DNA of 64,000 bases from a virus, in the IMG/VR virus record IMGVR_UViG_3300020039_000026, one strand, 5' to 3'. Below, piece after piece: positions 4,437-42,387 of the stretch. Position 1 is the stretch's first letter. Each line of letters opens with the position of its first letter. The notes under the pieces are model-generated. The model saw nothing but the letters and a program-made list of their open reading frames with translations. It made no database searches and had not been told where the DNA came from. Made by a program: the position numbers and the translations under genes.

Positions 4437-4754
4437 ATGAACGGAATGTTTCAGGTCGGAGATGCCGTTCGTGTAAAATCCTGGGACGAAATGGAACGTC
4501 AATATGGCTTTGATGGCCTGAATAGGATTTGCAACCCGGGCGACAATGTATGCTTCATTCATTCCATGAAAAGCCTGTGCGAGAAGGAAGCTGTAATCGA
4601 AAGCCTCGAGGAAGAATATGGTGGGGTTTCGTATCACCTGAATATTGACTCTGGTGGTGATTGGCGGTTCCGCGATTGGATGCTTGAGCCCGCAGAGATC
4701 CATGTTCCAGAAGAGTTTCAGACCGATAGTTTTCTCAATCTCATAATAAAATAA
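4437..4754 (+). CDS. Hypothetical protein
   Basis: 105-aa ORF. Confidence 0.4.
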   Translation: MNGMFQVGDAVRVKSWDEMERQYGFDGLNRICNPGDNVCFIHSMKSLCEKEAVIESLEEEYGGVSYHLNIDSGGDWRFRDWMLEPAEIHVPEEFQTDSFLNLIIK

Positions 4755-4948
4755 TGGTTTGTGATTCCAAAGGCGCTTGAAAGAGCGTCTTTTTTCATGC
4801 GAATTTTGAAAGGATGTGCCGTTATGATTCGCTTTCTGAAGGGGTTCCTGAATTGGTTGAGGGTTCTCATCATCTATGGTGATTTGTATCTTGACCCTGA
4901 ACAGCTTCGCGTCGAAAGTGAAGCTAAGTTCCTCCAGGCCGAGGTGAT

Positions 4949-9884: not shown

Positions 9885-10556
9885 ATGGACCTGAGTAAAT
9901 CCTACGATTTTTTCAAACCTGAAATGTTACAGGGACGGGTTCATATCATCGGCTGTGGGGCGATCGGCTCCACAGTCGCTGAAAACCTGTGTCGCTTTGG
10001 TGTAACCAAAATGACCCTGTACGATTTCGACATTGTCGAACCTAAAAACATCGCAAACCAGATGTTTACGTCCGAGGATATTGGCAAGAAAAAGGTTCGT
10101 GCGGTTGCCGAGTATCTTCGGAAAATCAACCCTGAAATCGTTGATGACCTTCGCGTTTGTGAAAATGGTTATACCGATCAGCGGCTTTCTGGATATATCT
10201 TCCTGTGCGTCGATAACATTGATCTTCGCCGGAAGATCGCGGAGTCCTGCCGTGGAAATCCCTTTGTGAAGGGCATGTTCGATTTCCGGATGAGGCTCAC
10301 AGACGCGCAGCACTATGCGGCGGACTGGAGTGACGAGGGAATGATTCAGGCTTTCTTGAACAGCATGGCCTTTTCCCATGAGGAAGCCAAAGAGGAAACG
10401 CCCGTTTCTGCCTGCAATATCACCCTTAGTGTCTGTACCACGGTTCGTTCGGTTGTAGCGGCCGGTGTATCCAACTTCGTAAATTTCGTCAAGGGTCAGG
10501 GAATCAAAAAAATGATCCTTTGCGATTCCTTCTCGTTTGGCCTGGATGCTTTTTAA
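9885..10556 (+). CDS. Minimal E1-like ThiF/MoeB-family adenylyltransferase domain protein
   Basis: Rossmann motif HIIGCGAIGS, then LYDFDIVEPKNIANQ (E1/MoeB DxDxVExSNLNRQ-like), GKKKVRAVAEYLRKINPEI (MoeB INPxI motif) and LCVDNIDLRRKI (DCxDN-like). 223 aa with no CxxC zinc motif. AAGGAGG RBS. Confidence 0.65.
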   Translation: MDLSKSYDFFKPEMLQGRVHIIGCGAIGSTVAENLCRFGVTKMTLYDFDIVEPKNIANQMFTSEDIGKKKVRAVAEYLRKINPEIVDDLRVCENGYTDQRLSGYIFLCVDNIDLRRKIAESCRGNPFVKGMFDFRMRLTDAQHYAADWSDEGMIQAFLNSMAFSHEEAKEETPVSACNITLSVCTTVRSVVAAGVSNFVNFVKGQGIKKMILCDSFSFGLDAF

Positions 10557-10572
10557 TCGATGAGGTGAGTAT

Positions 10573-11334
10573 ATGAAACTGAAAGAACTGCCGGTTGGAA
10601 ATCAAGTAGTTTTCGGCAGCTATGCCATGGATGGAAGTCATACATCCAAGGAATTGATTTGGACGAAGGTCACAGAAGACGGAAAATGCGTGTTAAAGCC
10701 AGATCAATTGAGCGGAAAGTTCGATTATCCGGAGCGTGGCGACGTTAATCGTGACCGCAAGGCGCATGGTTATAATTACTTCCCGATGGCAAACGTATTT
10801 CAGTTCATAAACTCGCCTGAAACTCAGTGGTTTCATCCGATGCATGAAGGCGACCGCGCTGGATACGATGCCAATCGCTGGGGTTTCCTGGCCTCATTCA
10901 CATCGGATGAAATCCGGCAGCTTCTTCCGCACGAAATCGAAATTGGCGTACCGGAAGGCTCCAGGAAGCAGCATGGCCGAAAAAACAAGCTGAAGTGTCT
11001 GGTTTCGCTCCCGTCGGCATCTCAATACCAGGAGACGGTCGATGATTATCTCCAGTGTGAGGGGGAGGTCATTCCTCTCCTGCAAAGAGACGGTGTTTTC
11101 CGTGGCTGGACGAGGAGCGGTGTTCTCGATTCGTGCCATGCATATGTGGCCAAATACGGATGGCTGGATGCATATCATTGTGATAATTCATTCACTATTT
11201 GCCCCATGGTCGTAATCAATCCTGAAAGCGAATTGACCCTTGATCCGGAAACCGGGCGTTATTACGTGAACATTCAATCGCAAGAAGAAGCGAGAATCAT
11301 GACTGATGATTTTCTCAATATGATTTTGAAATAA
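10573..11334 (+). CDS. Hypothetical protein, paralog of 5376-6149
   Basis: 253-aa ORF with GAGGTGAG RBS. Shared motifs with the paralog (FRGWTRSG vs RLWWLRSP; AYHCDN vs YAYHVR). Confidence 0.5.
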   Translation: MKLKELPVGNQVVFGSYAMDGSHTSKELIWTKVTEDGKCVLKPDQLSGKFDYPERGDVNRDRKAHGYNYFPMANVFQFINSPETQWFHPMHEGDRAGYDANRWGFLASFTSDEIRQLLPHEIEIGVPEGSRKQHGRKNKLKCLVSLPSASQYQETVDDYLQCEGEVIPLLQRDGVFRGWTRSGVLDSCHAYVAKYGWLDAYHCDNSFTICPMVVINPESELTLDPETGRYYVNIQSQEEARIMTDDFLNMILK

Positions 11335-11336
11335 AA

Positions 11337-11696
11337 TACTGCAATGCATAACCCGTTCTTTGAACGTGTGCTTTGTGCGTTACGCCAAAGTATCAAGATG
11401 CTGGAAAGAAGGATGACCGACCGCACTGGCAGCCGAAAGCACACCCTGAAGGCGCCATCCCCGGCAGGGTCTAATACCCAACCGACAGCAAACGTCGATC
11501 CCGGGATCCTACCATGCAACGATTTCACATGTACAACCTGGCAGCCCAATACAGCCATACGGAACATGCGAAAATCGTAAAATAAAATGCAATCGTCCGA
11601 AGACCGGCGCGTCGCCTCCAGGACAACCCAGATGACGACATCTCTACGATCGGACTCCTCTTCAGCAAGATCACCACAGGTACTCAGATTGCAGTA
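11337..11696 (+). ncRNA. Candidate retron msr/msd noncoding RNA. A 360-nt region bounded by inverted repeats a1 TACTGCAAT (11337-11345) and a2 ATTGCAGTA (11688-11696), ending 17 nt before the RT start.
   Basis: Perfect 9-bp inverted repeat (12 bp with one bulge) flanks the whole intergenic region, which is the retron a1/a2 layout. The interior is A/C-rich with a GATCCCGGGATC palindrome. No credible ORF. Confidence 0.4.
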
Positions 11697-11713
11697 ATTG
11701 GAGATGAATCAAA

Positions 11714-12856
11714 ATGCCTTATATCACGGTAAGACAGCCTCCTCCCACACAACAGATTACATTCGATGATCTGTTTCTTTCGCCAAACGCCATTCCAAAT
11801 CTCCCGATGGCGGTAAAGCGGGATATGTCAGGTACGATCACGAGGTTCGTGAAGTGCCCTAAAAAGGAATTAGTCGAGAGAATCAACGTTCAGTCGCTTA
11901 TTGATGCTCTGGAAATTTTCAATACGAAATACGGTCAGCTTCATGCGGCAAAACGGCAGGATCTTTACCATACTTTCTATATCCCGAAGCACTCCGGCGG
12001 TTTAAGAAAAATCGACGAACCCAACGAAGAACTGATGTCTGCTCTCAGGGAGCTAAAGTCCATCTTTGAAAATAAAATGGGAGCTTTATATCATACGTCG
12101 GCGTTCGCCTATGTCCCTGGTCGTTCCACCGTGGACGCAATCAAGCGCCACCAAGCAAATGAGAGCAGGTGGTTCTTAAAAACGGATTTCTCCAATTTCT
12201 TCGGCTCTACAACCGAAGAATTTTTATTTGAGTCCACTTCTCTTATCTTTCCGTTCAGCGAAATGGTCAGGTACACGAATGGCCGGGTTCAGCTAAGGCT
12301 CGCCCTGTCCCTCTGCATGTTGAACGGCGGCTTGCCCCAGGGTACGCCCATTTCACCAATGCTCACCAATCTGATGATGATCCCGATTGATCACAGGATC
12401 TTCAACGAGCTTTCCAAGGAGGGTTTCGTATATACCAGGTACGCTGATGACATTCAGCTTTCCCATAAATTCGAGTTCGATTATAAAGGGAAGGTCGATT
12501 ACATCAATACCGTCGTCAAGAGCTTCAGAGGGCCGTTTGAAATAAAGCCTGAGAAAACGCGGTATGGTTCTTCCTCCGGACGAAACTGGAACTTGGGTTT
12601 GATGCTGAATAAGGACAACGATATAACTGTCGGATATCAGCGCAAGAAGCAATTCAAGGCCATGACGAATAACTTTATCGTGGATTATCTGAATCACACG
12701 CCATGGCCGAAGGAAGATGTCCAGCATTTGAACGGTCTCAAAAGCTACTACCTTATGGTCGAGCCTGAATACTTCAAGTATATGCTCAGCCATCTTGAAC
12801 AAAAGTACAGCATTGATTTTGAAACTATGATGAAAGCGGCCTTAAACGCGGAGTGA
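11714..12856 (+). CDS. Reverse transcriptase, retron-type by motifs
   Basis: RT motifs: FYIPKHSGGLRKI (motif 2), AYVPGRSTVDAIKRH, KTDFSNFFGS (motif A), LPQGTPISPMLTNLMM (motif B-prime), VYTRYADDIQLS (motif C, YADD). 380 aa, retron-sized. GGAGATG RBS. Confidence 0.75.
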   Translation: MPYITVRQPPPTQQITFDDLFLSPNAIPNLPMAVKRDMSGTITRFVKCPKKELVERINVQSLIDALEIFNTKYGQLHAAKRQDLYHTFYIPKHSGGLRKIDEPNEELMSALRELKSIFENKMGALYHTSAFAYVPGRSTVDAIKRHQANESRWFLKTDFSNFFGSTTEEFLFESTSLIFPFSEMVRYTNGRVQLRLALSLCMLNGGLPQGTPISPMLTNLMMIPIDHRIFNELSKEGFVYTRYADDIQLSHKFEFDYKGKVDYINTVVKSFRGPFEIKPEKTRYGSSSGRNWNLGLMLNKDNDITVGYQRKKQFKAMTNNFIVDYLNHTPWPKEDVQHLNGLKSYYLMVEPEYFKYMLSHLEQKYSIDFETMMKAALNAE

Positions 12857-12865
12857 GGTGATTTC

Positions 12866-12973
12866 ATGCGAAGCGGATATTATGTAGGTTACGGTTACAA
12901 GGGTCTCGTTCGCGGCGTTTGGATGCTGTTCGCAACGGAACAGGAGTATATCGAGTACCTCCAAAACGACTAA
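12866..12973 (+). CDS. Small Tyr/Gly-rich ORF (35 aa) immediately after the RT
   Basis: ATG preceded by GAGGTGA RBS. Short, so uncertain. Confidence 0.25.
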   Translation: MRSGYYVGYGYKGLVRGVWMLFATEQEYIEYLQND

Positions 12974-12991
12974 ATCGAAGGAGGCCGCATC

Positions 12992-13747
12992 ATGAAGCCG
13001 CATAAATACAAGCCGATCTGCAAGGCTGGAGCGATGCTGCTCACAGAAGCCATCCTTTGGCAAGCTGGCCTTGATTGGCGAGAAAGTGACAGAATCCTCC
13101 AGCACAAAAATCGAAAGGACTTGCTGAGGCTGAAAAAGAACGTGGAGAGATTTTTCCGTTCTCAGTGGTTCGAGGATTTAACAGGGCTGGATGGGCGGGC
13201 GGTATTCCGCGAGCTCAGCGGCGGAAAGGATTTTATGAGCAAACCGTTTTGCACAGGCATGTACGGCGGAAAGTTTATGCCCATGCATAAAGGGCATCTG
13301 TACTGTCTAAAACAGGCATCGCGGCTGTGCGATAAAGTATATCTTATTTGCACGACAGGCGGTACGGACGAAGAAAGAATTGCGGGTGAAATTGAGCGCG
13401 GAGACACGGAGATCGGGGAATATCTTACCCCGGAATTTCGGCTGGAGCAAATCAAGCGTGCGGCCGCTATGCTTGATAACGTCGTCCCGGTCATGGTAGA
13501 TTTATCTTCCTGCCGCGATGAAAATGGCAATGAGGATTGGGATATGGAAACGCCCATTATCCTTGAAGCCTGCGGCGAACCCTTCGATGCCGTTTTTGGC
13601 AGCGAAGAATCCTATGCTCCGTACTTCAACCGGGCATATCCCGGTGCAGAGTACGTTTTGATAGATTGCGACCGGGCAGAGGTTCCTATCAGCGCGACAA
13701 AAGTTCGCGCCATGTCCAAGGACGAAGCGAAAGGATGGATGGTGTAA
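12992..13747 (+). CDS. NadR-type nicotinamide-nucleotide adenylyltransferase (NMNAT domain only) with about 85-aa N-terminal extension
   Basis: GGKFMPMHKGHLYCLKQASRLCDKVYLI matches the E. coli NadR NMNAT segment [34 protein letters not shown] matches ISGAQIR. No ribosylnicotinamide kinase domain. GAAGGAGG RBS. Confidence 0.65.
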   Translation: MKPHKYKPICKAGAMLLTEAILWQAGLDWRESDRILQHKNRKDLLRLKKNVERFFRSQWFEDLTGLDGRAVFRELSGGKDFMSKPFCTGMYGGKFMPMHKGHLYCLKQASRLCDKVYLICTTGGTDEERIAGEIERGDTEIGEYLTPEFRLEQIKRAAAMLDNVVPVMVDLSSCRDENGNEDWDMETPIILEACGEPFDAVFGSEESYAPYFNRAYPGAEYVLIDCDRAEVPISATKVRAMSKDEAKGWMV

Positions 13748-14467
13748 GTGTTTCATCTGGATTTCAAAAGAAGTTTCAAAAGCCTGAAATGGTACGAATG
13801 GGTCATGGCGATCATTATGATTGCCATTGCAGCTTGGGCGATGGTCTCCGCGTTCATCCATCCCAGTCCCAACGGGAACCCCGCCTGGTTGACCGTAATC
13901 AACTTCGTTAGCGCAGTGTGCGGGGTGATCTGCATCTTCTTCTGCGCTAAGGCAAACATCGGCAACTACATATTCGGCATCATCAACACGGTCGTATATG
14001 CCATTTACCTGATGTACTGGAAGATATACGGCACTTTCTTCCTGGAGGTTCTGTACTACCTGCCCACCAATATTGCCGGATGGTATCTCTGGACATGCTA
14101 TCGCGATTCCGATGATAGGAATATTACCATGTCCAAAAAATTGACGCCGAAACAAAACGCAATCGTTGCATTGTTCGTTGCTGCGACAACGGTGTTATAC
14201 CATGCAATTCTCGTTGCTGTGGGCGGCAATGTTGCCTGGTTGGATGCGGCCACCGTTGCCATCGGCCTTGTAGCCACATTCCTGCAAATGAAGCGATACA
14301 GAGAACAGTATGTATGGTGGCTTATCACAGACGTGGTTGCTGTCGCCATGTATATTGTTCATTTCGATCCCGTGTATCTCACGAAGAAATCAATCTATCT
14401 GATTATGGCGATTATCGGCTTAATTAACTGGGTTAAACTCAGCCAGAAAAATGTCGCCAACGAATAA
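13748..14467 (+). CDS. pnuC: PnuC-family nicotinamide riboside transporter
   Basis: 239 aa, about 7 predicted TM helices, PnuC-like aromatic-rich pattern (WYLW, NxxxW). Classic pnuC-nadR adjacency. Confidence 0.6.
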   Translation: MFHLDFKRSFKSLKWYEWVMAIIMIAIAAWAMVSAFIHPSPNGNPAWLTVINFVSAVCGVICIFFCAKANIGNYIFGIINTVVYAIYLMYWKIYGTFFLEVLYYLPTNIAGWYLWTCYRDSDDRNITMSKKLTPKQNAIVALFVAATTVLYHAILVAVGGNVAWLDAATVAIGLVATFLQMKRYREQYVWWLITDVVAVAMYIVHFDPVYLTKKSIYLIMAIIGLINWVKLSQKNVANE

Positions 14468-14761
14468 AGGATGAGCAGAAATGAGTCGGCAAGAACAGCA
14501 ATTTCAGACAGGGGATAAAGTTCTTGTTACGGAACGTATCCGTCCATGCAATGAATGCTATGAGTTTCTTGTCGGAGAACTTATACAGTAAGCGGTGTCG
14601 TTTTGCATCACGATCGCTACTACTATAAATTCCGTGATAATCCCACAGGAAATCGATCATTTGCTATTCTGGAACACTGTCTTGAACTTGTCGATGAAAC
14701 GCCCGTACCCAGTGAGATTCTTGCCGACTCTTTCTGTGATTTGATCTTCGGAGGTGATTAA

Positions 14762-15082: not shown

Positions 15083-15159
15083 CTGGGTGTAGCGAAGCTT
15101 GGTATCGCGCTTGATTTGGGATCAAGAGATCGCGGGTTCAAGTCCCACCACCCAGACCA
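15083..15159 (+). tRNA. tRNA-Pro (anticodon TGG), CCA encoded
   Basis: Acceptor CTGGGTG/CACCCAG, D-stem GCGA/TCGC, anticodon stem CTTGA/TCAAG with loop TTTGGGA, T-arm GCGGG-TTCAAGT-CCCAC (one C-A mismatch), ACCA end. Confidence 0.7.
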
Positions 15160-15556
15160 TTGGAAAGCGCATCTTTCCAATCTGTATGAAAGACTACCGT
15201 GAGCGGAGGACGCAGCGGATAGGCACCATGATGTCACGTCTTTTGTATAGAAAACGAATCAAAATACGATATATGATAGGCGTAGGCTACTGCGGCTTTA
15301 TTAAGAAGAAACGGATGCTACCCTGATGCGCGGGGAGCGGCAGTGAAAAGTTCCGTGTCGCATGATGATTCCTGGTTACATATGTAGATTGGGTGGTACG
15401 CGAGATCATCCAGGGCGAAGAAGCTGAAGTTCGTTCCGGATAGAAGAAACTGAGCATACGAGGAGCGGTCCGGAGAGGGTATGGAGAACCTCTGATATAA
15501 GTTCTGCCATGCGTTGTAGTTTGCTTGGTTTCGCCAGGATTCATCATGCAATGTGA

Positions 15557-15629
15557 GGGGCCGTAGCTCAATCGGCAGAGCGCCTGCTTTGCAAGCAGGA
15601 GGTAAGGGGATCGTAACCCCTCGGCTCCA
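15557..15629 (+). tRNA. tRNA-Ala (anticodon TGC) with non-canonical T-loop ATCGTAA
   Basis: Acceptor GGGGCCG/CGGCTCC (G3-U70 pair typical of tRNA-Ala), D-stem GCTC/GAGC, anticodon loop TTTGCAA, T-arm AGGGG-ATCGTAA-CCCCT. No CCA encoded. Confidence 0.6.
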
Positions 15630-15659
15630 TTCCTATTTGACTGTTCCGGAGGTTTTCCC

Positions 15660-15833
15660 ATGGCTGAATCGCAAGAGTATACGATCGTGTTTACGCCGGA
15701 TTGCTTTCACCCGGATATCAAAATCACCATTGCAGTACCGGCCGACCATGACGCGGAAGAATACATCGACCAGTATCTGGAATCCATTCTAAATAATAAT
15801 ATCCTGTATAACTGCGAATGGTCGTTTGCTTAA
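15660..15833 (+). CDS. Small hypothetical protein (57 aa)
   Basis: ATG ORF below the ORF-track size cutoff. Plausible acidic small protein between tRNAs. Confidence 0.3.
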   Translation: MAESQEYTIVFTPDCFHPDIKITIAVPADHDAEEYIDQYLESILNNNILYNCEWSFA

Positions 15834-15919
15834 TTGACCGCTTCAACATTTTGGGATATCAAACGTAATAAACACGTTACCTGCTGGATGCCGCTTCCCG
15901 AACATCCGAAGGAGAAAAC

Positions 15920-16105
15920 ATGAAGTGCAAAGACTGTAAATACTGGCAGATGGAAGATGAACCACCCGGCATCTCAGAGTTTATGGAATGTACACGCATT
16001 GACGAAAACGACCCTGACTGGTGGAAGAAGTGGCATTTTCGCGGGCCGGAAGATTCATGCGAATACGGGGAAAAGAAAGGAAGTTGGCAATCGCCCTTTG
16101 GATAG
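15920..16105 (+). CDS. Small Cys-rich protein
   Basis: 61 aa with GGAGAAAACATG RBS. CKDCKYW...C...C pattern suggests a zinc-binding fold. Confidence 0.35.
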   Translation: MKCKDCKYWQMEDEPPGISEFMECTRIDENDPDWWKKWHFRGPEDSCEYGEKKGSWQSPFG

Positions 16106-16162
16106 AGCCCTGTGTGAAATCCTCCGCATAGTGCAGAATGCTTTTCAGTTACGCAGCTCTAT

Positions 16163-16247
16163 GTCCCTGTGGTGGAATTGGCAGACGCGGGGGAATTAAA
16201 ATCCCTCGTCTTCGGACGTGTGAGTTCAAATCTCACCAGGGACACCA
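16163..16247 (+). tRNA. tRNA-Leu (anticodon TAA), class II with long variable arm, CCA encoded
   Basis: Acceptor GTCCCTG/CAGGGAC, D-arm GTGGTGGAATTGGCAGACGC (Leu-like), anticodon loop ATTAAAA, variable hairpin CGTC-TTCG-GACG, T-arm GTGAG-TTCAAAT-CTCAC, ACCA. Confidence 0.7.
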
Positions 16248-16249
16248 AA

Positions 16250-16570
16250 GGAATAACTGAAAAACGGGTTGGGAGGAAACAAGCTTTATTCTCGCTGCCA
16301 CCCAAAGGCAGAGAAGCAGATGGCGTACTGCACCCGTCACATAGCGTAGGTTATTCCATCCTGATGTATCCCGGCGAACAGGCCAAAAGCCGGGTGGTGG
16401 AGTGGACCCAGAGGGACGACGCGTGGGGGTGGTATCCTACGCAAATAAACCGCCAGCACAACGACTCCCTGTAGCTGGTAAACCAAAAGGCAGGCGTTTT
16501 CGTGGAGGGATACCGTAGAAGCGGAACGCAGAAGGCCAATGGTATGGGATTTACATTCATGCGGTTTGCC
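16250..16570 (+). ncRNA. Structured noncoding region with a conserved hairpin motif (16362-16398) and nested inverted repeats
   Basis: No ORF. GGAATAAC (16251) pairs with GTTATTCC (16349). GCGTAGG (16342) pairs with CCTACGC (16439). Motif TGATGTATCCCGGCGAACAGGCCAAAAGCCGGGTGGT recurs at 16652 with compensatory stem changes. Confidence 0.35.
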
Positions 16571-16575
16571 CATAA

Positions 16576-16648
16576 GGCTCCTTAGCTCAATCTGCAGAGT
16601 ATCTGACGATTAATCAGTATGATGTTGGTTCAAATCCAGCAGGAGCCA
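16576..16648 (+). tRNA. tRNA-like gene with non-canonical anticodon loop CGATTAA (G at position 33, nominal anticodon ATT). Identity unassigned.
   Basis: Perfect 7-bp acceptor GGCTCCT/AGGAGCC, D-arm GCTC-AATCTGCA-GAGT, T-arm GTTGG-TTCAAAT-CCAGC, 73 nt. Anticodon stem TCTGA/TCAGT has a terminal T-T mismatch and the loop lacks U33. Confidence 0.4.
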
Positions 16649-16649
16649 G

Positions 16650-17010
16650 ATTGATGTATCCCGATGAACAATAAAAATCGGGTGGTATGCTGTGGCTACA
16701 GGCGGAGTAGCGCTCCGCAGGGCTCCCGTTCCTAACCCTGGCCATGAATGCCTGTGGGGCTCATGGCCAAAGAACGGCTTCTGTGCGGGTAGCCTGGCGG
16801 CGATGGGTTCGATTCCCATGACTCGCGCAAGTGGCCGGGTAGCGCCCGGCTGATGTGAGCGTCCGCGCAACACCTCACAAAGAATGACAATGGCCGCTGA
16901 AAACGTACTTCGGCACATGTCCGGTCGCATGACTTCCCTCGACCGTCAGGGTGCATGACACGATCCGTCAGCGAAGCACGATAATCTAAGCGGCAAGCGC
17001 CCATTTCAGT
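16650..17010 (+). ncRNA. GC-rich structured noncoding region starting with the second copy of the covarying hairpin motif (16651-16686) and containing a tRNA T-arm-like element ATGGG-TTCGATT-CCCAT (16808-16824)
   Basis: Only antisense-looking ORFs. Multiple local hairpins (GGCGGAGTAGCGCTCCGC, GGCCATGAATGCCTGTGGGGCTCATGGCC). The T-arm-like element is followed by GACTCGC, which could pair with GCGGGTA upstream as a minihelix. Confidence 0.3.
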
Positions 17011-17094
17011 AATTCATTTGAAAGGTGGTATACATATGGAAATCCTGTTAACCAAGAAATCCCCTATGTGTATGCACGCCAGTAAGGAGTCACT

Positions 17095-17499
17095 ATGAGC
17101 AATTGGACACATGTAGCGGCCATCGTCCGCCTGGACTGTATTCGTCCACTGTATGACAGGGATCCTAATATGGATGACCTGTTCGGAAAAGAATGTTTGT
17201 GGGATGCGCCGGGAGAAGTTCGGAGCGACGCGGAGAAGCATCCTGAAAACTACCTGCCAACCGGAAGCGAGGGAAGCCTGCATAAAAGCGTGTGGATTAA
17301 TCCGAACCGTCAGGAGATTCCCGCCTTTGTCATTTCCATTTTCGGTGATCTGCGCGATCATGATTCTTCCCAGGAAATCATTGAGTGGTTTAAGAAGAAA
17401 TGCGAAAAGGCGATGGAGTTCCATTGCTTTATTCGCAATGCTGTGATTACTGCGGAGAATGAATGCAATGGTTCCGCGCATTGGGAGTACGAAGAATAG
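17095..17499 (+). CDS. Hypothetical protein
   Basis: 134-aa ORF with AAGGAG RBS. Confidence 0.5.
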   Translation: MSNWTHVAAIVRLDCIRPLYDRDPNMDDLFGKECLWDAPGEVRSDAEKHPENYLPTGSEGSLHKSVWINPNRQEIPAFVISIFGDLRDHDSSQEIIEWFKKKCEKAMEFHCFIRNAVITAENECNGSAHWEYEE

Positions 17500-17574
17500 G
17501 CCGAATGATCCCGTACATCAAACGTTCCCGAATTACGGTGGTAAGCTGACCGGCGAAAGCCTACGCGCCGAAAA

Positions 17575-17596
17575 TCGGATTTATGCCCGCCCGGTT
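17575..17596 (+). terminator. Hairpin terminator candidate just upstream of tRNA-Gly
   Basis: GCCCGCC-CGGTT-GGCGGGC followed by TTTG. Confidence 0.4.
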
Positions 17597-17668
17597 GGCG
17601 GGCTTTGCAGCCGTAGTGTAATGGCAATCACACCGTCCTTCCAAGTCGGGTTTGCGGGTTCGAGTCCC
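17597..17668 (+). tRNA. tRNA-Gly (anticodon TCC)
   Basis: Acceptor GCAGCCG/CGGCTGC, anticodon stem CCGTC/GTCGG (one T-T mismatch), loop CTTCCAA, T-arm GCGGG-TTCGAGT-CCCGT. No CCA. Confidence 0.6.
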
Positions 17669-17673
17669 GTCGG

Positions 17674-17775
17674 CTGCTTTTATGGGAGAGTAACCAAGAG
17701 GTCAAAGGTGCGAGACCGTAAATCTCGCGTTCTGATATGCCGCGCTAAAACAGAACTTCGCTGGTTCAAATCCAG
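17674..17775 (+). tRNA. tRNA-Tyr-like (anticodon GTA) with unusually long 28-nt variable arm and C at position 33. About 102 nt, possibly aberrant.
   Basis: Acceptor GGGAGAG/CTCTCCC with one extra nt before it. Tyr-like D-arm AACCAAGAGGTCAAAGGT. Anticodon stem CGAGA/TCTCG with loop CCGTAAA. Variable arm GTTCTG-ATATGCCGCGCTAAAA-CAGAAC. T-arm GCTGG-TTCAAAT-CCAGT. Confidence 0.4.
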
Positions 17776-17783
17776 TCCTCTCC

Positions 17784-17872
17784 CATTTTCTTTGGAAGGT
17801 TGGCTGAGCCTGGCTGAAAGCACCGGTCTTGAAAACCGGCAGCCCCAAAAGGGGCTCGTGGGTTCAAATCCC
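17784..17872 (+). tRNA. tRNA-Ser (anticodon TGA), class II
   Basis: Acceptor GGAAGGT/ACCTTCC with G73 discriminator, anticodon stem CCGGT/ACCGG, loop CTTGAAA, variable hairpin AGCCCC-AAAA-GGGGCT, T-arm GTGGG-TTCAAAT-CCCAC. Confidence 0.7.
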
Positions 17873-17905
17873 ACACCTTCCGCTTTTTGATTGGAGGAAT
17901 AAATC

Positions 17906-18325
17906 ATGACGGAATATCAACGGCAGGCAGAAGATTTTTTAGCCCGCAGCGGGACGACCATGAAAATCACACGCGACGGCGATGTGCGCGGCTTCCCGTT
18001 TGACAAAAGCGATCATCATATGCATGAGAAGTATCTCATCTCCATGCGTCGCGGCTGTCGCTCCTATGAGTTTCCTTTTTATGACTGTGCGGCGAACTTC
18101 CACACAAACAAGCGGCCAACCGCATATGATGTTCTGTCTTGTCTGGAAAAGTACGAAGTACCATCGGATGATTGGGATTTTGCACATGAGTTCGGCTACG
18201 ACATCCACGATAAAGAAAGCTTCAATCGCGTGTCCAAAATCCGTAAGGCGTGTGAAGAGCAATATGCCGCCCTGTATCTTATGTTCGGGGATCAATGGAT
18301 GGAAGAACTTAGGCAAATCAACTAA
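17906..18325 (+). CDS. Hypothetical protein
   Basis: 139-aa ORF with GGAGGAATAAATCATG RBS. Confidence 0.5.
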   Translation: MTEYQRQAEDFLARSGTTMKITRDGDVRGFPFDKSDHHMHEKYLISMRRGCRSYEFPFYDCAANFHTNKRPTAYDVLSCLEKYEVPSDDWDFAHEFGYDIHDKESFNRVSKIRKACEEQYAALYLMFGDQWMEELRQIN

Positions 18326-18382
18326 CCTATTGTCTGTTCATGAAAAGGATTAAGAATAGATAATCCAAAGCAGGTACTCCTT

Positions 18383-18787
18383 TTGGTTGTAAATGGGGGA
18401 ATATCTTTGTATATCCGAAAAAGTATCCATTCCATTGAGTCCGTCTACGAAGCCGTTCATGATACGATGTTCAATCCGAAAACCACATACATCCTATTCG
18501 ATGGCGATGAAATCAAAAGCACAAGTCAGCGCTATCAGGTATTTTTTACAAAAGGGATTCGCTGCGTTTCGTGCGGCATCGAAGGGAAATATTTTGCCAA
18601 GGAAAAAGGGCATGGTTCATCACAAGATCGCTATCACCTTAATTTATACGCCATTGACGAAAATGGCAAGGAAGTCCTGATGACCAAAGACCATATCATC
18701 CCAAGATCAAAGGGTGGTTTGAATCGTCTGGAAAACTATCAAACGATGTGTCAAATCTGCAATAGCAAAAAGGGAAGCGAACATTGA
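18383..18787 (+). CDS. HNH endonuclease, free-standing
   Basis: C-terminal HNH motif HIIPRSKGGLNRLENYQTMCQICNSKKGSEH with CxxC zinc ligands. Confidence 0.6.
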   Translation: MVVNGGISLYIRKSIHSIESVYEAVHDTMFNPKTTYILFDGDEIKSTSQRYQVFFTKGIRCVSCGIEGKYFAKEKGHGSSQDRYHLNLYAIDENGKEVLMTKDHIIPRSKGGLNRLENYQTMCQICNSKKGSEH

Positions 18788-18794
18788 TAGGTCT

Positions 18795-19595
18795 ATGGAT
18801 AAAGCATGGGTACAAGAAAAGGAAGCACAAAGGGCTGAAGAAATACGGCTTACCAAAGAAACTATCCGCCGGAAAATCTTAGACGCAGGGCTTCAGGAAT
18901 ATGTCGATGTTCTCTTAGCTGGCGTAGATAAGAGCTTTGATCTTCACGTATCATTTTTGTGCGGTTCAATAGAAATACTTGACGCAATTAAGAAGAAAAC
19001 TACTGGCAACAAAGAGCTATTTGCTTCTATTATCGAAAAGTATTGCTTGTTTGAGCATAGCATCCGCGAAGAGTTGGAAAAACTTTTTCAGCTTAAATAC
19101 AGCTTCCAGCAATTTTCCGACTCAGATCTGGTCGAGTTTGATGGGGATATTATCATTACAGATCCTTGCTATGTCATGCGAGACGACGCCGAAGATGATT
19201 GGGAAAAGTGTTCTTGCGGCGAGAACATGGACGAACTCGGCATCCATCACTTCATGAGCCGCAGTACCATTATTGGCGACTGGAGCTGTACTGTCTACAA
19301 TACAGATAATCATAGGAAGATAGGTGAGTTCTGCGCCGATGCGGGAATGGTTTCTGTTCTCCTGCTAAATGAAGTCCTTCAATACAATCCGTCCTTCGAC
19401 TATCATATAAATAGGAAGTGGACGACGGCGCTGATAAAGAATTTCAAAGGAACCGTTCAGTTTGTTGTTCACGAGGTACACTTTGAGTACAATGGCGAAG
19501 ATCATGTGGGCTACGAGGTGGAAGTAGTTGGGCATGGTGTCAATAAGAAAACCGGCAAGCCTTTCAACTTTTCGTCAAGACAAACCGGGTTATAA
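18795..19595 (+). CDS. Hypothetical protein
   Basis: 266-aa ORF. Confidence 0.5.
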   Translation: MDKAWVQEKEAQRAEEIRLTKETIRRKILDAGLQEYVDVLLAGVDKSFDLHVSFLCGSIEILDAIKKKTTGNKELFASIIEKYCLFEHSIREELEKLFQLKYSFQQFSDSDLVEFDGDIIITDPCYVMRDDAEDDWEKCSCGENMDELGIHHFMSRSTIIGDWSCTVYNTDNHRKIGEFCADAGMVSVLLLNEVLQYNPSFDYHINRKWTTALIKNFKGTVQFVVHEVHFEYNGEDHVGYEVEVVGHGVNKKTGKPFNFSSRQTGL

Positions 19596-19631
19596 AATTA
19601 CGCTTTTATTAATCGATAAGGAGGTAAACCT

Positions 19632-20042
19632 GTGGCATTTTGGAATAAAAAGAAGAAAAAAGATGAAAAGCAGGAACTTCCTATTAAAATATTATCCCCT
19701 TGCGAGCGTGGTGAACACCGTTACAAGGATTTTGATTGGTATATCAAAACATATGTTGATCAGTCCTATTATAACAACCGATATGTCGTTACGGTGATCG
19801 AACCATATGTCTGCATCCATTGCGGGCACCGCGAAGATCAGGAACTCGGCAAATGGATTTTTGCAAAGAAAACGGATAAAACCGCATTCGTTGAGCATCT
19901 CAGCAAGAATCCAAACATCAAGCCAATCATCGAAGTGGAAGACGCCATTCACGATATGCAGCTTGTCGATCGAGAGTATCTTTCAATTTTTCAGCAGCTC
20001 CATCCAGATAAAAAGATTTTGGATGAAGCCAAGCCGGATTAA
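19632..20042 (+). CDS. Hypothetical protein with Cys/His pairs
   Basis: 136-aa ORF with AAGGAGG RBS. CERGEHRY...CIHCGH suggests a zinc-binding fold. Its 3-prime end overlaps the tRNA-Thr start. Confidence 0.5.
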   Translation: MAFWNKKKKKDEKQELPIKILSPCERGEHRYKDFDWYIKTYVDQSYYNNRYVVTVIEPYVCIHCGHREDQELGKWIFAKKTDKTAFVEHLSKNPNIKPIIEVEDAIHDMQLVDREYLSIFQQLHPDKKILDEAKPD

Positions 20043-20105
20043 CTCAATTGGCAGAGTGCCGCTTTTGTACTGCGGAAGCTGCGGGTTCAATTCCTGTATC
20101 CGGCT
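20033..20105 (+). tRNA. tRNA-Thr (anticodon TGT)
   Basis: Acceptor GCCGGAT/ATCCGGC, D-stem ACTC/GAGT, anticodon stem CCGCT/TGCGG (terminal T-T), loop TTTGTAC, T-arm GCGGG-TTCAATT-CCTGT. No CCA. Confidence 0.55.
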
Positions 20106-20107
20106 CT

Positions 20108-20181
20108 GCCCCTGTCGCCTAAATGGAATAAGGCACCGGTTTCGTACTCCGGAGATGCTGGATCGTACCCAGCCAGGGGCT
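20108..20181 (+). tRNA. tRNA-Thr (anticodon CGT) with non-canonical T-loop ATCGTAC
   Basis: Acceptor GCCCCTG/CAGGGGC, D-stem GCCT/AGGC, anticodon stem CCGGT/TCCGG (terminal T-T), loop TTCGTAC, T-arm GCTGG-ATCGTAC-CCAGC. No CCA. Confidence 0.5.
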
Positions 20182-20205: not shown

Positions 20206-20994
20206 ATGCCAGACTCCCTCGGTGACCGAATGAAAGCATATGAGAATATTTCCAGAATCTATCTTACGAAACGCCTGCCGGTTATTATCCGAATCGACGG
20301 GCGTGCGTTTCATACTCTTACTCGCGGTTTTGACCGTCCGTTTGATACTGTGTTTTCACGCTCTATGTGGGATACGGCGGCAGAGCTATGTAAGGAAATT
20401 GGCGGTGCAAAATTAGCTTACACCCAAAGCGATGAAATTTCCATCCTCCTCACCAATGACGATAACCTCGAAACCCAGCCGTGGTTCGATAATAATCTGC
20501 AAAAGCTGGTCAGTGTCGCCGCTTCGACCGCCACCAAGGAATTCAATAATATCTTCGACTGGTATTGGATCAATAATGATCCTGATGGAGAATTGCGGCT
20601 TGCTTATTCCAGAGCCTCCGGCGAAGCTACATTTGACGCCAGGGCATTCGTTCTTCCTCATGACGAGGTATGCAATTATTTCATTTGGCGGCAGCAGGAT
20701 GCCGTCCGCAATTCTATCCAGATGGCGGCTCAAAGCGTCTATTCTCACAAGGAACTGCAAGGGAAAAATCAAAACGACCTTCAGGAAATGTTGTTTCAGA
20801 AAGGAATCAATTGGAATAATTATGGTCCGTGGCACAAGCGCGGCGTGTGCGTAATTAAAAAGTTTGCGGAAGAGCAGGCCACCGGCGAGGAACAGGCACG
20901 TCTGCACTGGGTAGTGGATATGAATATTCCTATCTTCACTCAGGATCGTGGCTATATCGAAAACGCTTTGAAAGGGAATCAGAATGACACTTGA
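20206..20994 (+). CDS. Thg1-like protein (tRNA-His guanylyltransferase family 3-prime-to-5-prime polymerase)
   Basis: N-terminal MKAYENISRIYLTKRLPVIIRIDGRAFHTLTRGF matches the Thg1/TLP signature (FEYV...P.VVRIDGR.FH.F). 262 aa. Immediately downstream of the tRNA array. Confidence 0.6.
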   Translation: MPDSLGDRMKAYENISRIYLTKRLPVIIRIDGRAFHTLTRGFDRPFDTVFSRSMWDTAAELCKEIGGAKLAYTQSDEISILLTNDDNLETQPWFDNNLQKLVSVAASTATKEFNNIFDWYWINNDPDGELRLAYSRASGEATFDARAFVLPHDEVCNYFIWRQQDAVRNSIQMAAQSVYSHKELQGKNQNDLQEMLFQKGINWNNYGPWHKRGVCVIKKFAEEQATGEEQARLHWVVDMNIPIFTQDRGYIENALKGNQNDT

Positions 20995-22006
20995 AGAAAT
21001 CAAATCCACAATCGCAGGAAGCTCGTATGATTTTCTTAGAAATGATGAGCATTTGGTCGGCAGGATTGCTTTCATATGTCTCGGTGGTTCTTATGCATAC
21101 GGTACGAATGTAGAAGGTTCTGACCTGGATATTCGCGGCTGTGCATTAAATAGCGCAAGCGAGCTGATCGGCTTTCATCGTTTCGAGCAGCTTGTCGATT
21201 CCAAAACCGACACGACGATTTACGCCTTCAACAAATTGATCCGTCTCCTCCATTGCTGCAATCCAAATGTAATAGAGATGCTCGGTTGCAAACCTGAGCA
21301 TTATTTTTTCATGTCGGATGTCGGCAGGCAAATGATCGAGAACAGAAAAATGTTCTTGTCGAAACGTGCCGCCTATACATTCGGTGGCTATGCGTTCTCA
21401 CAGCTTCGTCGCCTTGAGAACGCCATTGCCCGTGACAGGCTTGATCAAGGCAGGAAAGAAGTTCATATCCGAAACAGCATTGATAAGGTTGTCAAGAATT
21501 TTAATAACGAAGGAAGAGCCATCCCTGTTTCATACACGCTTGATTTAGGCGCAGCCGTCCATGATGACCTGGAAACCGAAACATATATCACCATGGATTT
21601 AGGATATTATCCCGTCAGGGATTTAAAGGCGCTGGTCAACGAAATCAATAATGTCATTAACGACTATCAGAACGATCTGCATGGAAGAAATAAAAAGAAA
21701 GATGATTTTCATCTGAATAAACACGCCATGCATTTAATTCGCCTGTATTTGATGGCCATCGATATTTTGGAAAAGGAAGAAGTCGTCACATATAGAGAGA
21801 AGGATCACGACCTTTTGATGAGCATTAGGAATGGAAAATTCCAGCACGAAGACGGTACGTTCGACAGCTCATTCTTCGATTTGGTGCACCATCTTTCTCA
21901 TCGCATGGAATACGCGAAGGAAAACACGTCTCTTCCAAACAGTCCAGATGCAGACAAGATTGAAAAATTTGTAATGGATGTTAATCGACGAGTTATTTGT
22001 GATTAG
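20984..22006 (+). CDS. Pol-beta-superfamily nucleotidyltransferase (GS...DxD), specific family unassigned
   Basis: ICLGGSYAYGTNVEGSDLDIRG is the minimal NTase G[SG]x9-13DxD motif, followed by a roughly 250-aa helical region. Start overlaps the Thg1-like gene. Confidence 0.5.
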   Translation: MTLEEIKSTIAGSSYDFLRNDEHLVGRIAFICLGGSYAYGTNVEGSDLDIRGCALNSASELIGFHRFEQLVDSKTDTTIYAFNKLIRLLHCCNPNVIEMLGCKPEHYFFMSDVGRQMIENRKMFLSKRAAYTFGGYAFSQLRRLENAIARDRLDQGRKEVHIRNSIDKVVKNFNNEGRAIPVSYTLDLGAAVHDDLETETYITMDLGYYPVRDLKALVNEINNVINDYQNDLHGRNKKKDDFHLNKHAMHLIRLYLMAIDILEKEEVVTYREKDHDLLMSIRNGKFQHEDGTFDSSFFDLVHHLSHRMEYAKENTSLPNSPDADKIEKFVMDVNRRVICD

Positions 22007-39805: not shown

Positions 39806-39813
39806 TATAACGC

Positions 39814-40575: not shown

Positions 40576-40578
40576 GAG

Positions 40579-41016: not shown

Positions 41017-41031
41017 TCTGGTGGTGATTAT

Positions 41032-42378: not shown

Positions 42379-42387
42379 GGAGCATAT

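What the first reader, a model, noticed from the sequence alone, without database searches (positions are those of the whole stretch)
16576..16648. tRNA-like gene with intact cloverleaf but non-canonical anticodon loop CGAUUAA (G33, nominal anticodon AUU)
The acceptor stem (7/7), D-arm, T-arm (GTTGG-TTCAAAT-CCAGC) and overall 73-nt length are tRNA-like. The anticodon stem TCTGA/TCAGT has a terminal T-T pair, as in three other tRNAs of this array. The loop lacks the universal U33, and positions 34-36 read ATT, which is not a normal anticodon. It could be a tRNA-Ile(GAT)-like gene with a shifted loop, a suppressor or recoding tRNA, a decoy substrate for an anticodon nuclease, or a regulatory tRNA-like RNA. 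The second copy of the covarying hairpin motif starts 2 nt after it.
Basis: seen in the sequence. Interest (0 to 1): 0.55.

Follow-up and report, generated by a model that had tools for sequence, protein, structure and literature searches.

The report
Phage tRNA with G33 and AUU anticodon
This is a real, intact phage tRNA gene whose anticodon loop breaks the near-universal U33 rule; the G33 is inherited from sister phages and the same odd loop recurs in about twenty other viral tRNA genes, so it is probably a working variant rather than a broken gene, though which amino acid it carries is unknown.

Summary
ARAGORN and Rfam both call a 73-nt tRNA at 16576-16648 (+) with the loop CGAUUAA: G33 and anticodon AUU.

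It is not Ile-like. Its stems give no sign of pseudogene decay. Sister phages carry the ortholog at the same place in the tRNA array. There the loop is CGCUUAA, with G33 kept, anticodon CUU (Lys) and discriminator A or U. Every stem substitution keeps pairing, so the window phage differs by one wobble base (C34 to A34).

The resulting loop CGAUUAA recurs in 15 other distinct tRNA genes of uncultivated phages and in a few bacterial assemblies. In these 16 genes G73, the Asn identity base, is absent (0/16) and CCA is never encoded (0/16). That holds even in arrays where every other tRNA encodes CCA. A separate U33-AUU class mostly keeps G73.

My best reading is an AAN-box tRNA whose positions 33-34 were remodelled to escape enzymes that need Y33 plus G34 or U34. 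Colicin E5 is the tested example: published G34A, U33A and U33G changes abolish its cleavage. Whether the tRNA still decodes AAU, acts as a decoy, or is a recently disabled tRNA-Lys(CUU) is unresolved.

Verdict: new variant of a known kind, of moderate to high interest.

The parts
16576..16648 (+). Non-canonical tRNA gene, 73 nt including discriminator A73, with no encoded CCA
   Evidence: ARAGORN; Rfam tRNA 53.1 bits. Orthologs are L264:6067-6139 and L271/L272.
16607..16613 (+). Anticodon loop C32 G33 A34 U35 U36 A37 A38
   Evidence: Read from the sequence. The same 7-mer loop occurs in 15 other distinct IMG/VR tRNA genes and in several tRNAs of GTDB assemblies.
16608..16608 (+). G33 in place of the near-universal U33; conserved in all three orthologous lineages
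   Evidence: Alignment A2.
16609..16611 (+). Nominal anticodon AUU. Position 34 is A here and C in the orthologs
15083..20181 (+). The tRNA array that holds it: Pro(UGG), Ala(UGC), Leu(UAA), this gene, Gly(UCC), a Tyr-like tRNA with C33, Ser(UGA), Thr(UGU), Thr(CGU). Conserved non-coding RNA-like stretches lie between the genes
   Evidence: A syntenic array is present in L264.
20206..22006 (+). Thg1-like tRNA 5'-end nucleotidyltransferase and RlaP-family RNA-repair nucleotidyltransferase, immediately after the array. They are context, showing that this phage invests in tRNA maintenance
   Evidence: Pfam PF04446/PF14413 and PF10127; phrog_4717 and phrog_388.

Best explanation
What it is (shown). 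It is a structurally intact phage tRNA gene of the AAN (Lys/Asn) codon box. It is the positional and sequence ortholog of a tRNA in sister phages whose loop is CGCUUAA: G33, anticodon CUU, discriminator A or U. G33 is therefore an inherited and retained feature. The window phage differs by a single wobble change, C34 to A34. That change gives CGAUUAA, a loop that recurs in many unrelated phage tRNA genes.

How it most likely works (inferred). Positions 33-34 have been remodelled so that proteins needing a pyrimidine at 33 next to G34 or U34 can no longer act on it. Candidates are colicin-E5-type nucleases that recognise Y33-G34-U35, PrrC-type nucleases that cut 3' of U33, and the queuosine-inserting enzyme TGT, which needs U33-G34-U35. 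The rest of the ANN-type loop is kept: C32, U35, U36 and the 36-UAA-38 determinant of t6A37. With A34 the RNA pairs by Watson-Crick rules with AAU, which means Asn in this phage's own genes.

Its acceptor marks (A73, U35, U36, descent from a CUU tRNA) look like Lys rather than Asn. So the attached amino acid, and how well it decodes, are open. I commit to a nuclease-insensitive AAN-box tRNA variant that is still made and folded as a tRNA. I treat whether it decodes or acts as a decoy as the main unresolved step.
For: - It is a real gene with a full cloverleaf.
- Orthology: it is 83.6% identical over all 73 nt to L264:6067-6139, in a syntenic array with conserved flanks. Further orthologs are in L271/L272.
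- Across the three lineages G33, U35-A38 and even the U27.U43 mismatch are invariant. All four stem substitutions keep pairing, including two double changes in the T stem.
- The loop CGAUUAA occurs in 15 other distinct IMG/VR tRNA genes with different acceptor, anticodon and T stems, and in tRNAs of bacterial assemblies.
- In one cluster found through a neighbouring protein, so unbiased with respect to the loop, acceptor and T stems change by compensation while AUUAA is kept.
- In L230 the variant is a 94% paralog of the adjacent canonical tRNA-Asn(GUU). The differences fall on 33, 34, 73, the 27-43 pair and the CCA.
- G33 also occurs with C34, G34 and U34 in phage NUU tRNAs.
- Published experiments: colicin E5 requires Y33-G34-U35, and G34A, U33A and U33G abolish cleavage (PMC1635277). 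Bacterial t6A needs 36-UAA-38 and not U33 (PMC13276492). Phage tRNAs with anticodon-loop changes are proposed or shown to escape tRNA nucleases (PMC10264068, PMC12409363, PMC11555353).
- AAU encodes conserved Asn in the window: 9 of 9 conserved Asn columns of Thg1.
- The phage carries tRNA-repair-type enzymes next to the array.
Against: - No nuclease, host or expression data exist. Resistance is inferred from one enzyme family studied in E. coli.
- Colicin E5 does not cut tRNA-Lys, and the immediate ancestor here looks like a G33 tRNA(CUU).
- G33 removes the U-turn uridine needed for efficient ribosome binding. One quarter of the class lacks G18G19 (12/16 keep it, against 514/526 canonical tRNAs; p = 7e-4).
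- None of the 16 encodes CCA (canonical 347/526; p = 5e-8) and none has G73 (canonical Asn 20/20). These features fit a non-decoding RNA as well or better.
- The PARIS AriB site U36-A-A-U-C|A41 is intact (PMC12409363), so the RNA is not protected from every known nuclease.
- The A34 allele is known from one phage genotype only. L081 and L082 are 100% identical to the window.
- An unmodified A34 in a split codon box would be expected to misread.
Confidence: 0.4

Rival explanations
1. Decoy or mimic. The RNA is a tRNA-Asn/Lys look-alike that is made and folded but is not aminoacylated and not used on the ribosome. It binds a tRNA-targeting immune nuclease, or another tRNA-binding host factor, without being productively cut, and so protects the real tRNAs.
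For: - The class lacks G73 (0/16) and never encodes CCA (0/16). This holds even in arrays where all other tRNAs encode CCA: L230 (3/3) and L255 (10/10).
- The discriminator varies freely (A, C or U), and G18G19 is lost in 4 of 16.
- Position 34 changes between orthologs (C or A) although this changes the cognate codon.
- A 6-nt loop UAUUAA replaces CGAUUAA in sister lineages while the body evolves by compensation.
- Many members are the only tRNA in their locus.
- The AriB recognition string UAAUCA is retained (PMC12409363).
Against: - My search of the held literature found no precedent for a phage tRNA decoy.
- A catalytic nuclease is not easily titrated by a substrate mimic.
- Two members in bacterial assemblies do encode CCA.
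- No partner gene is conserved next to these tRNAs.
- Retention of 36-UAA-38 and of a perfect acceptor stem is equally expected for a working tRNA.
Confidence: 0.25
2. Recent loss or drift. The gene is a G33 tRNA-Lys(CUU), as in the sister phages, that suffered a C34-to-A substitution in this lineage. It is now useless or mildly harmful and has not yet decayed further.
For: - Two of three orthologous lineages have C34, and the lineage closest to the window (L271/L272) has C34, so A34 is the derived state by parsimony.
- A34 is seen in one genotype only.
- A single substitution is enough to produce the loop.
- The phage uses AAG heavily (662 codons), so it would lose a useful decoder.
- The D loop lacks G18G19.
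Against: - The rest of the gene is intact.
- The identical loop is found in 15 other distinct phage tRNAs. These include a paralog pair with changes targeted to particular positions, and an orthologous cluster under compensatory evolution.
- By a rough comparison of targeted-scan counts, G33 is much commoner beside A34 than beside G34 or U34. There are 15 G33-AUU genes against about 20 U33-AUU genes, while G33 with G34 or U34 gave 3 and 1 genes in the single-gap scan, although canonical Asn(GUU) and Lys(UUU) far outnumber AUU tRNAs in the loci fetched for other reasons.
Confidence: 0.2
3. Deliberate mistranslator. LysRS charges it (U35, U36, A73) and it inserts Lys at AAU (Asn) codons at a low level. 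G33 damps its decoding, as in Candida tRNA-Ser(CAG). This would be analogous to Streptomyces tRNA-ProN.
For: - Its identity marks are Lys-like, and bacterial Asn and Lys identities differ mainly at position 34 and at 73 (PMC9976931).
- Natural mistranslating tRNAs carry a purine at 33 and A34. tRNA-ProN has A33, A34 and anticodon AUU (PMC10404621, PMC11415595).
- The L230 variant changed G73 to A73 relative to its Asn paralog.
Against: - AAU sits at strictly conserved Asn positions of the phage's own proteins, so efficient Lys insertion would hurt the phage.
- Discriminators C and U are common in the class: A73 in only 9/16, against 28/29 in canonical Lys tRNAs.
- No dedicated synthetase gene was seen among the neighbours scanned.
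Confidence: 0.08
4. Shifted-register or recoding tRNA. This covers Ile(GAU) read from 33-35, an ochre suppressor read from 35-37 (UUA), or a frameshift-promoting tRNA.
For: - The string GAU is present at 33-35 and UUA at 35-37.
- Position 34 varies among orthologs while 35-38 are invariant, as expected if 34 were not part of the anticodon.
- Some relatives of the Thg1 locus carry CUA suppressor tRNAs.
Against: - The loop is 7 nt on a normal 5-bp frame, so the geometry puts 34-36 at the anticodon.
- The -1 register would give Ile in the window and Ser in the orthologs.
- The standard code explains the coding density (81% of the + strand is covered by stop-to-stop ORFs of at least 100 aa), and TAA is the main stop codon (53 of 94).
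Confidence: 0.03

Closest known systems
tRNA-ProX family of Streptomyces/Kitasatospora, in particular tRNA-ProN (PMC10404621; review PMC11415595)
   Same: Natural tRNA with anticodon AUU, unmodified-type A34, a purine instead of U33, and without the Asn identity elements. Annotated as tRNA-Asn by software.
   Different: ProN has A33, not G33. It also has C1:G72, A15:A48 and G21, and sits next to a special ProRS gene. The window gene has G1:C72, no such synthetase among the neighbours I scanned, is phage-encoded, and descends from a CUU/Asn-like tRNA.
Phage tRNAs with anticodon stem-loop substitutions that escape tRNA-targeting defences (hypothesis of van den Berg et al., PMC10264068; T5 tRNA-Lys/Thr/Asn versus PARIS AriB, PMC12409363 and PMC11464382; T5 tRNA-Tyr versus retron effector, PMC11555353)
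   Same: A phage-encoded copy of a commonly targeted tRNA type (Lys/Asn box), with changes at positions that published assays show to be nuclease determinants.
   Different: The known cases keep U33, a standard anticodon and normal identity, and act as replacements. Here U33 itself and the wobble base are changed, the Asn identity base is gone, and the AriB site is intact.
Candida CUG-clade tRNA-Ser(CAG) with G33 (as summarised in PMC11415595)
   Same: G33 next to the anticodon in a natural tRNA of ambiguous identity. There G33 is thought to lower decoding efficiency.
   Different: It is eukaryotic, has a different anticodon, and its function in reassigning CUG is proven.
Phage tRNA-Asn(AUU) with normal U33 (loop CUAUUAA), seen here in IMG/VR
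   Same: Same anticodon and the same kind of genomes. It shows that A34 in the Asn box is used by phages.
   Different: This class mostly keeps G73 (11/17) and often CCA (6/17). It can be the only Asn-type tRNA ARAGORN finds in the fetched part of a large array, so it looks like a true Asn acceptor. The G33 class has G73 in 0/16 and CCA in 0/16 (p = 9e-5 for G73).

Membership tests
tRNA (Rfam RF00005, canonical elongator tRNA) | Cloverleaf that scores above the curated threshold | tested here: met
   53.1 bits against a gathering score of 29, over the full model. ARAGORN also calls it.
tRNA (Rfam RF00005, canonical elongator tRNA) | U33 (U-turn) and G18G19 in the D loop | tested here: not met
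   Position 33 is G. The D loop AAUCUGCA has a single G.
Bacterial tRNA-Asn | Anticodon G34 U35 U36 | tested here: not met
   A34 U35 U36. Identity rules are from PMC9976931.
Bacterial tRNA-Asn | Discriminator G73 | tested here: not met
   A73 in the window. G73 is found in 0/16 of the G33-AUU class and in 20/20 canonical phage tRNA-Asn.
Bacterial tRNA-Lys | U35, U36 and discriminator A73 | tested here: met
   Read from the sequence. The orthologs carry the CUU anticodon.
Bacterial tRNA-Lys | U or C at position 34; lysylation | tested here: not met
   Position 34 is A. Aminoacylation itself cannot be tested with these tools.
tRNA-Ile(GAU) | G34 A35 U36 with A37 A38 | tested here: not met
   GAU occupies 33-35, not 34-36. 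The orthologs have GCU there.
Suppressor / recoding tRNA | Anticodon complementary to a stop codon, and a genome that needs read-through | tested here: not met
   The anticodon is AUU. The standard code fits and TAA is the commonest stop.
tRNA-ProX mistranslating tRNAs | A33, A34, C1:G72, A15:A48, adjacent ProRSx gene | tested here: not met
   Only A34 is shared. The window has G33 and G1:C72, and no synthetase among the ten neighbouring ORFs scanned.
Nuclease-insensitive phage tRNAs | Substitutions at positions that a tRNA nuclease requires | tested here: met
   U33G and G34A relative to tRNA-Asn. Both classes of change abolish colicin E5 cleavage in published assays (PMC1635277).
Nuclease-insensitive phage tRNAs | Demonstrated resistance, and rescue of translation during infection | not testable with these tools
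   Needs biochemistry and genetics. The host is unknown.
tRNA pseudogene | Indels or unpaired stems relative to orthologs | tested here: not met
   No indels. 95% of cells are paired, and all stem changes preserve pairing.

The most novel reading that the evidence does not exclude
G33-A34 (loop CGAUUAA) tRNAs are a distinct, convergently evolved class of virus-encoded tRNA-Asn/Lys mimics. They have been stripped of synthetase identity (no G73, no encoded CCA). They act as uncharged decoys or inhibitors of tRNA-targeting immune nucleases, or of another tRNA-binding host factor. That would be a new type of RNA-based anti-defence.
Probability: 0.25. Interest if true: 0.85.

Novelty: new variant of a known kind. 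Interest (0 to 1): 0.6.

Why it matters
U33 is one of the most conserved nucleotides in biology, and A34 is normally excluded from split codon boxes. This gene shows that phages repeatedly build tRNAs that break both rules in the same way, and keep them under structural selection.

If these RNAs are nuclease-proof decoders, they extend the idea that phage tRNAs evade tRNA-cleaving immunity to changes inside the U-turn and the anticodon itself. That is a case previously thought to be closed to phages, which were said simply to avoid encoding such tRNAs.

If they are uncharged mimics, they would be a new kind of anti-defence RNA.

Either way they give a concrete and easily synthesised test object for the specificity of anticodon nucleases, TGT, LysRS/AsnRS and the ribosome. 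They also show that annotation pipelines label them misleadingly as tRNA-Asn.

Tried and rejected
- GenBank phages hold no close relative: megablast found nothing and blastn found only generic tRNA matches.
- Exact-pattern scans of IMG/VR for the T arm plus acceptor and for the D arm plus T loop found nothing.
- Thg1 relatives from IMG/VR (57% identity or less) and from the big protein database (69% or less) have no orthologous tRNA. L083-L095 carry no tRNA within 10 kb.
- L081 and L082 turned out to be the same genome as the window, so they are not independent evidence.
- Nearest-neighbour typing of the tRNA body is inconclusive for the window (Met, Lys and Asn all at 0.72-0.74). It is clear only for L230.
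- No gene is conserved next to the CGAUUAA tRNAs, and PHROGs annotation of their neighbours is uninformative.
- BLAST of class members against GenBank phages returned only canonical tRNA-Asn, Lys and Ile genes, so no cultured phage with this loop was found. The phi92-type 'tRNA-OTHER' is an unrelated odd tRNA(UCU).
- The idea that AAU is recoded to Lys was rejected, as was stop-codon recoding.
- A link to the nearby reverse transcriptase was considered and dropped, because my all-against-all comparison of ORFs next to the other class members found no shared neighbour gene.
- Literature searches found no description of phage G33 tRNAs or of tRNA decoys.
- Correction to an earlier notebook remark that no bacterial-assembly hit has G73: L432 does, with a weak anticodon stem.

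Full report
**1. The observation.**
ARAGORN reports eight tRNA genes in the window. One is 'tRNA-Asn (att)' at 16576-16648 on the + strand. Rfam's tRNA model matches the same 73 bases end to end at 53.1 bits (gathering score 29).

The sequence gives:
- a 7/7 acceptor stem (GGCUCCU/AGGAGCC);
- a 4-bp D stem;
- a D loop AAUCUGCA without the usual G18G19;
- an anticodon stem UCUGA/UCAGU with a U27.U43 mismatch;
- the loop C32-G33-A34-U35-U36-A37-A38;
- a normal T arm;
- discriminator A73 and no encoded CCA.

Folding recovers the acceptor, D and T arms (z = -2.6). It does not recover the weak anticodon stem.

**2. Context.**
The window is phage-like. Genes lie almost all on the + strand, GC is 46-47%, and the standard genetic code fits. 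It is identical to two metagenome contigs of 106 and 114 kb. It has no close relative among GenBank phages.

Genes and features around the tRNA:
- Upstream are a reverse transcriptase, NMN adenylyltransferase and PnuC.
- Downstream are an HNH endonuclease, a Thg1-like tRNA 5'-end nucleotidyltransferase and an RlaP-family RNA-repair nucleotidyltransferase.
- The array also holds a second tRNA without U33 at 17685-17784. It is a type-II, Tyr-like gene with loop CCGUAAA, found by Rfam but not by ARAGORN.

**3. Orthologs.**
Relatives found through Thg1 were too distant and carry no tRNAs nearby. A homolog of the small protein at 17906-18325 led to a syntenic relative, L264. Its gene order runs ThiF, RT, tRNA array, HNH, Thg1, DUF5662, GP88, aminotransferase, Band_7.

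The L264 array reads Pro, Ala, Leu, X, Ile, Ser ... Thr, Thr. X (L264:6067-6139) aligns with the window gene over all 73 nt at 83.6% identity, between conserved flanks. A pattern that left the loop free retrieved the same gene from two further metagenome contigs, L271 and L272, again after tRNA-Leu.

In all these relatives the loop is CGCUUAA: G33 with anticodon CUU (Lys). The discriminator is A in L264 and U in L271/L272.

In the three-way alignment G33, U35-A38 and the U27.U43 mismatch are invariant. There are no indels. All four substitutions in stems keep pairing, two of them as double changes in the T stem. The only loop difference is C34 against A34.

By parsimony A34 is derived in the window lineage, because the closest relative (L271/L272) and the more distant L264 both have C34. 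So G33 is an inherited, retained feature.

**4. The loop recurs elsewhere.**

G33-AUU genes (loop CGAUUAA):
- Scanning IMG/VR for the anticodon arm, and then for A31-CGAUUAA-U39 followed by a T loop, gave 15 further distinct tRNA cloverleafs.
- Their acceptor, anticodon and T stems all differ from one another.
- Most sit in AT-rich contigs where AAU is 70-90% of Asn codons. Many are the only tRNA in the fetched locus.
- A scan of one genome per bacterial species found at least five more well-formed examples, in Saccharibacteria, Rhizobiales, Lachnospiraceae, Reinekea and Eubacteriales assemblies.

G33 with other bases at 34:
- With the T-loop spacing fixed at 13 nt, G33 is also found with C34 (4 distinct genes), G34 (3) and U34 (1).
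- The comparable count for A34 at that spacing is 5, with 9 more at a spacing of 12.

U33-AUU genes (loop CUAUUAA):
- The normal-U33 version of the AUU anticodon exists too, in about 20 distinct phage tRNAs.

**5. What distinguishes the G33-AUU class.**
I parsed acceptor stems consistently.

| Class | Discriminator | CCA encoded | GG in D loop |
|---|---|---|---|
| G33-AUU (n = 16) | A 9, C 5, U 2, G 0 | 0/16 | 12/16 |
| U33-AUU (n = 17) | G 11, A 4, U 2 | 6/17 | 16/17 |
| Canonical Asn(GUU) | G 20/20 | – | – |
| Canonical Lys | A 28/29 | – | – |
| All canonical phage tRNAs fetched | – | 347/526 | 514/526 |

- G73 in G33-AUU against U33-AUU: p = 9e-5.
- Encoded CCA in G33-AUU against canonical tRNAs: p = 5e-8.
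- GG in the D loop in G33-AUU against canonical tRNAs: p = 7e-4.
- One bacterial-assembly hit (L432) does have G73, and two others encode CCA.

Three further observations:
- In the two arrays where every other tRNA encodes CCA (L230, 3/3; L255, 10/10), the G33-AUU gene is the only exception.
- In L230 the variant is a 94% paralog of the adjacent canonical tRNA-Asn(GUU), with identical acceptor and D arms. The differences are CUGUUAA to CGAUUAA, G73 to A73, loss of CCA, a repaired 27-43 pair and two minor changes. BLAST of several members against GenBank phages also returns canonical tRNA-Asn as the nearest body.
- In one cluster retrieved through the neighbouring protein, so unbiased for the loop, three lineages have CGAUUAA and two have a 6-nt loop UAUUAA. 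Acceptor and T stems change there by compensation.

**6. What it is not.**
- Not Ile(GAU) with a shifted loop. The orthologs would then read GCU (Ser), and the loop is a regular 7-mer on a 5-bp frame.
- Not a suppressor. The standard code gives 81% coverage of the + strand by stop-to-stop ORFs of at least 100 aa, and TAA is the commonest stop codon (53 of 94).
- Not evidence that AAU is recoded. In the Thg1 alignment with 119 homologs, all nine conserved Asn columns are AAU in the window, and conserved Lys columns are AAA or AAG.
- Not a member of the tRNA-ProX family. It has G33 rather than A33, G1:C72 rather than C1:G72, and no ProRSx among the neighbours scanned.
- Not a normal tRNA-Asn. 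Bacterial Asn identity rests on the anticodon plus G73, and Lys identity on the anticodon (especially U35) plus A73 (PMC9976931).

**7. How it most likely works.**
Published experiments show that colicin E5 needs Y33-G34-U35. G34A abolishes cleavage, U33C is tolerated, and U33A or U33G cause a drastic loss (PMC1635277). Bacterial t6A37 formation needs 36-UAA-38 and is indifferent to U33 and N34 (PMC13276492).

The loop CGAUUAA thus removes exactly the 33-34 determinants used by anticodon-loop enzymes of this kind. It keeps the remainder of an ANN-type loop.

This matches the general idea that phage tRNAs carry anticodon stem-loop changes to escape tRNA-targeting defences (PMC10264068, PMC12409363, PMC11555353). 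The phage also encodes tRNA-end repair-type enzymes.

I therefore favour a nuclease-insensitive AAN-box tRNA variant (confidence 0.4). Shown: the gene, its fold, its orthology, retention of G33, recurrence of the loop, and loss of Asn identity marks. Inferred: expression, insensitivity to nucleases, the amino acid carried, and decoding.

**8. Rivals.**
- Decoy (0.25). It explains best the missing G73 and CCA, the free discriminator, the C/A change at 34 between orthologs, the 6-nt loop variant and the solitary genes. It has no precedent that I could find.
- Recently disabled G33 tRNA-Lys(CUU) (0.2). It fits the parsimony argument and the single known genotype. It does not explain the recurrence of the identical loop in other phages.
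- Lys-inserting mistranslator (0.08). It parallels tRNA-ProN (A33, A34, AUU; PMC10404621) and Candida G33 (PMC11415595). It would damage the phage's own conserved Asn positions.
- Shifted-register readings (0.03). These are unlikely.

**9. Novelty and interest.**
I found no description of phage tRNAs with G33, or of the CGAUUAA class. The concept it extends, non-canonical anticodon loops in phage tRNAs, is known. So are natural purine-33/A34 tRNAs. I therefore rate it a new variant of a known kind.

The surprise lies in the repeated, structurally constrained loss of U33 together with A34 in a split codon box, and in the systematic loss of synthetase identity marks. Interest 0.6.

Noticed in passing
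window 17685-17784 (+): A second tRNA without U33. It is type II (30-nt variable arm) and Tyr-like, with loop CCGUAAA (C33, GUA). Rfam scores it 34 bits and ARAGORN misses it. Its counterpart in L271 (953-854, minus strand) has the normal CUGUAAA, so C33 appears derived in the window phage.
   Followed up: partly
window 16719-16898 (+): A non-coding stretch about 90% identical to L264:6247-6442 (97% in its 3' half), far above the roughly 70% of neighbouring coding DNA. The consensus fold has 65 pairs, 7 of them with compensatory changes between only two sequences. It includes a 9-bp stem enclosing a T-arm-like hairpin AUGGG-UUCGAUU-CCCAU. There is no Rfam or ARAGORN match. It is a candidate new structured, tRNA-like RNA.
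   Followed up: partly
window 16362-16398 and 16652-16686 (+): Two copies of a hairpin motif, TGATGTATCCC(GGC/GAT)...(GCC/ATC)GGGTGGT, with compensatory stem changes. No further copy is in the window (only chance-level matches). The motif has no U-run, so it is not an intrinsic terminator.
   Followed up: partly
window 11714-12856 (+); L264:2739-3878; L267:381-1508: A reverse transcriptase (RVT_1, phrog_2825) is conserved upstream of the tRNA array in this phage group. L267 has an Rfam RT-2 RNA directly upstream of its RT. The window has no Rfam match at E <= 1 in 10500-14600.
   Followed up: partly
IMG/VR loci L333-L405 (e.g. L340, L373, L380): About 20 phage tRNAs have normal U33 and anticodon AUU (loop CUAUUAA). 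11 of 17 have G73 and 6 have CCA. Several are the only Asn-type tRNA that ARAGORN finds in the fetched part of a large array. This implies that A34 tRNA-Asn is really used by some phages, although A34 is normally avoided in split codon boxes.
   Followed up: partly
L004, L016, L022-L024, L035, L052 (IMG/VR relatives of the Thg1 locus): CUA (amber suppressor) tRNAs sit within a few kb of the Thg1-like gene in several large phages. This suggests TAG recoding in those genomes.
   Followed up: no
window 20206-22006 (+): A Thg1-like plus RlaP nucleotidyltransferase gene pair. More than 7,700 homologs of the Thg1-like protein score E <= 1e-40 in the protein database. In relatives the pair sits next to an RNA/DNA ligase, PhoH, Macro and PARP-like genes, which looks like a phage RNA-repair and anti-defence neighbourhood.
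   Followed up: partly
window 56839-56913 (+) and 20107-20181 (+): A skipping-rope RNA (RF02924) at 57.6 bits. A sub-threshold skipping-rope match (23.9 bits) overlaps tRNA-Thr(CGU).
   Followed up: no
L264:5179-5287: A drum RNA (RF02958, 86 bits) lies between tRNA-Pro and tRNA-Ala in the sister phage. No match reaches E <= 1 at the corresponding place in the window.
   Followed up: no
L271 848-754 (minus strand): A tRNA-like gene that Rfam aligns with a 28-nt insertion in the anticodon loop. ARAGORN reads it instead as a type-II tRNA with loop CCAUACA (C33, A34, anticodon AUA). It is another non-U33/A34 candidate, next to a Tyr-like tRNA with the normal CUGUAAA loop (Rfam match at L271 953-854).
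   Followed up: no
window 39811-43230 (+): Five consecutive stop-to-stop reading frames, all in the same frame, each separated from the next by a single stop codon (TAA, TAA, TGA, TAA). This is probably chance in tightly packed genes. I did not examine it further.
   Followed up: no
L329 (Escherichia phage Antha, phi92-like) 2463-2541 and 4726-4801: A gene annotated 'tRNA-OTHER' that appears to lack a D arm and carries anticodon UCU. The same array has a tRNA-Ile(GAU) with C33 (loop CCGAUAA). So loops without U33 also occur in cultured coliphages.
   Followed up: no
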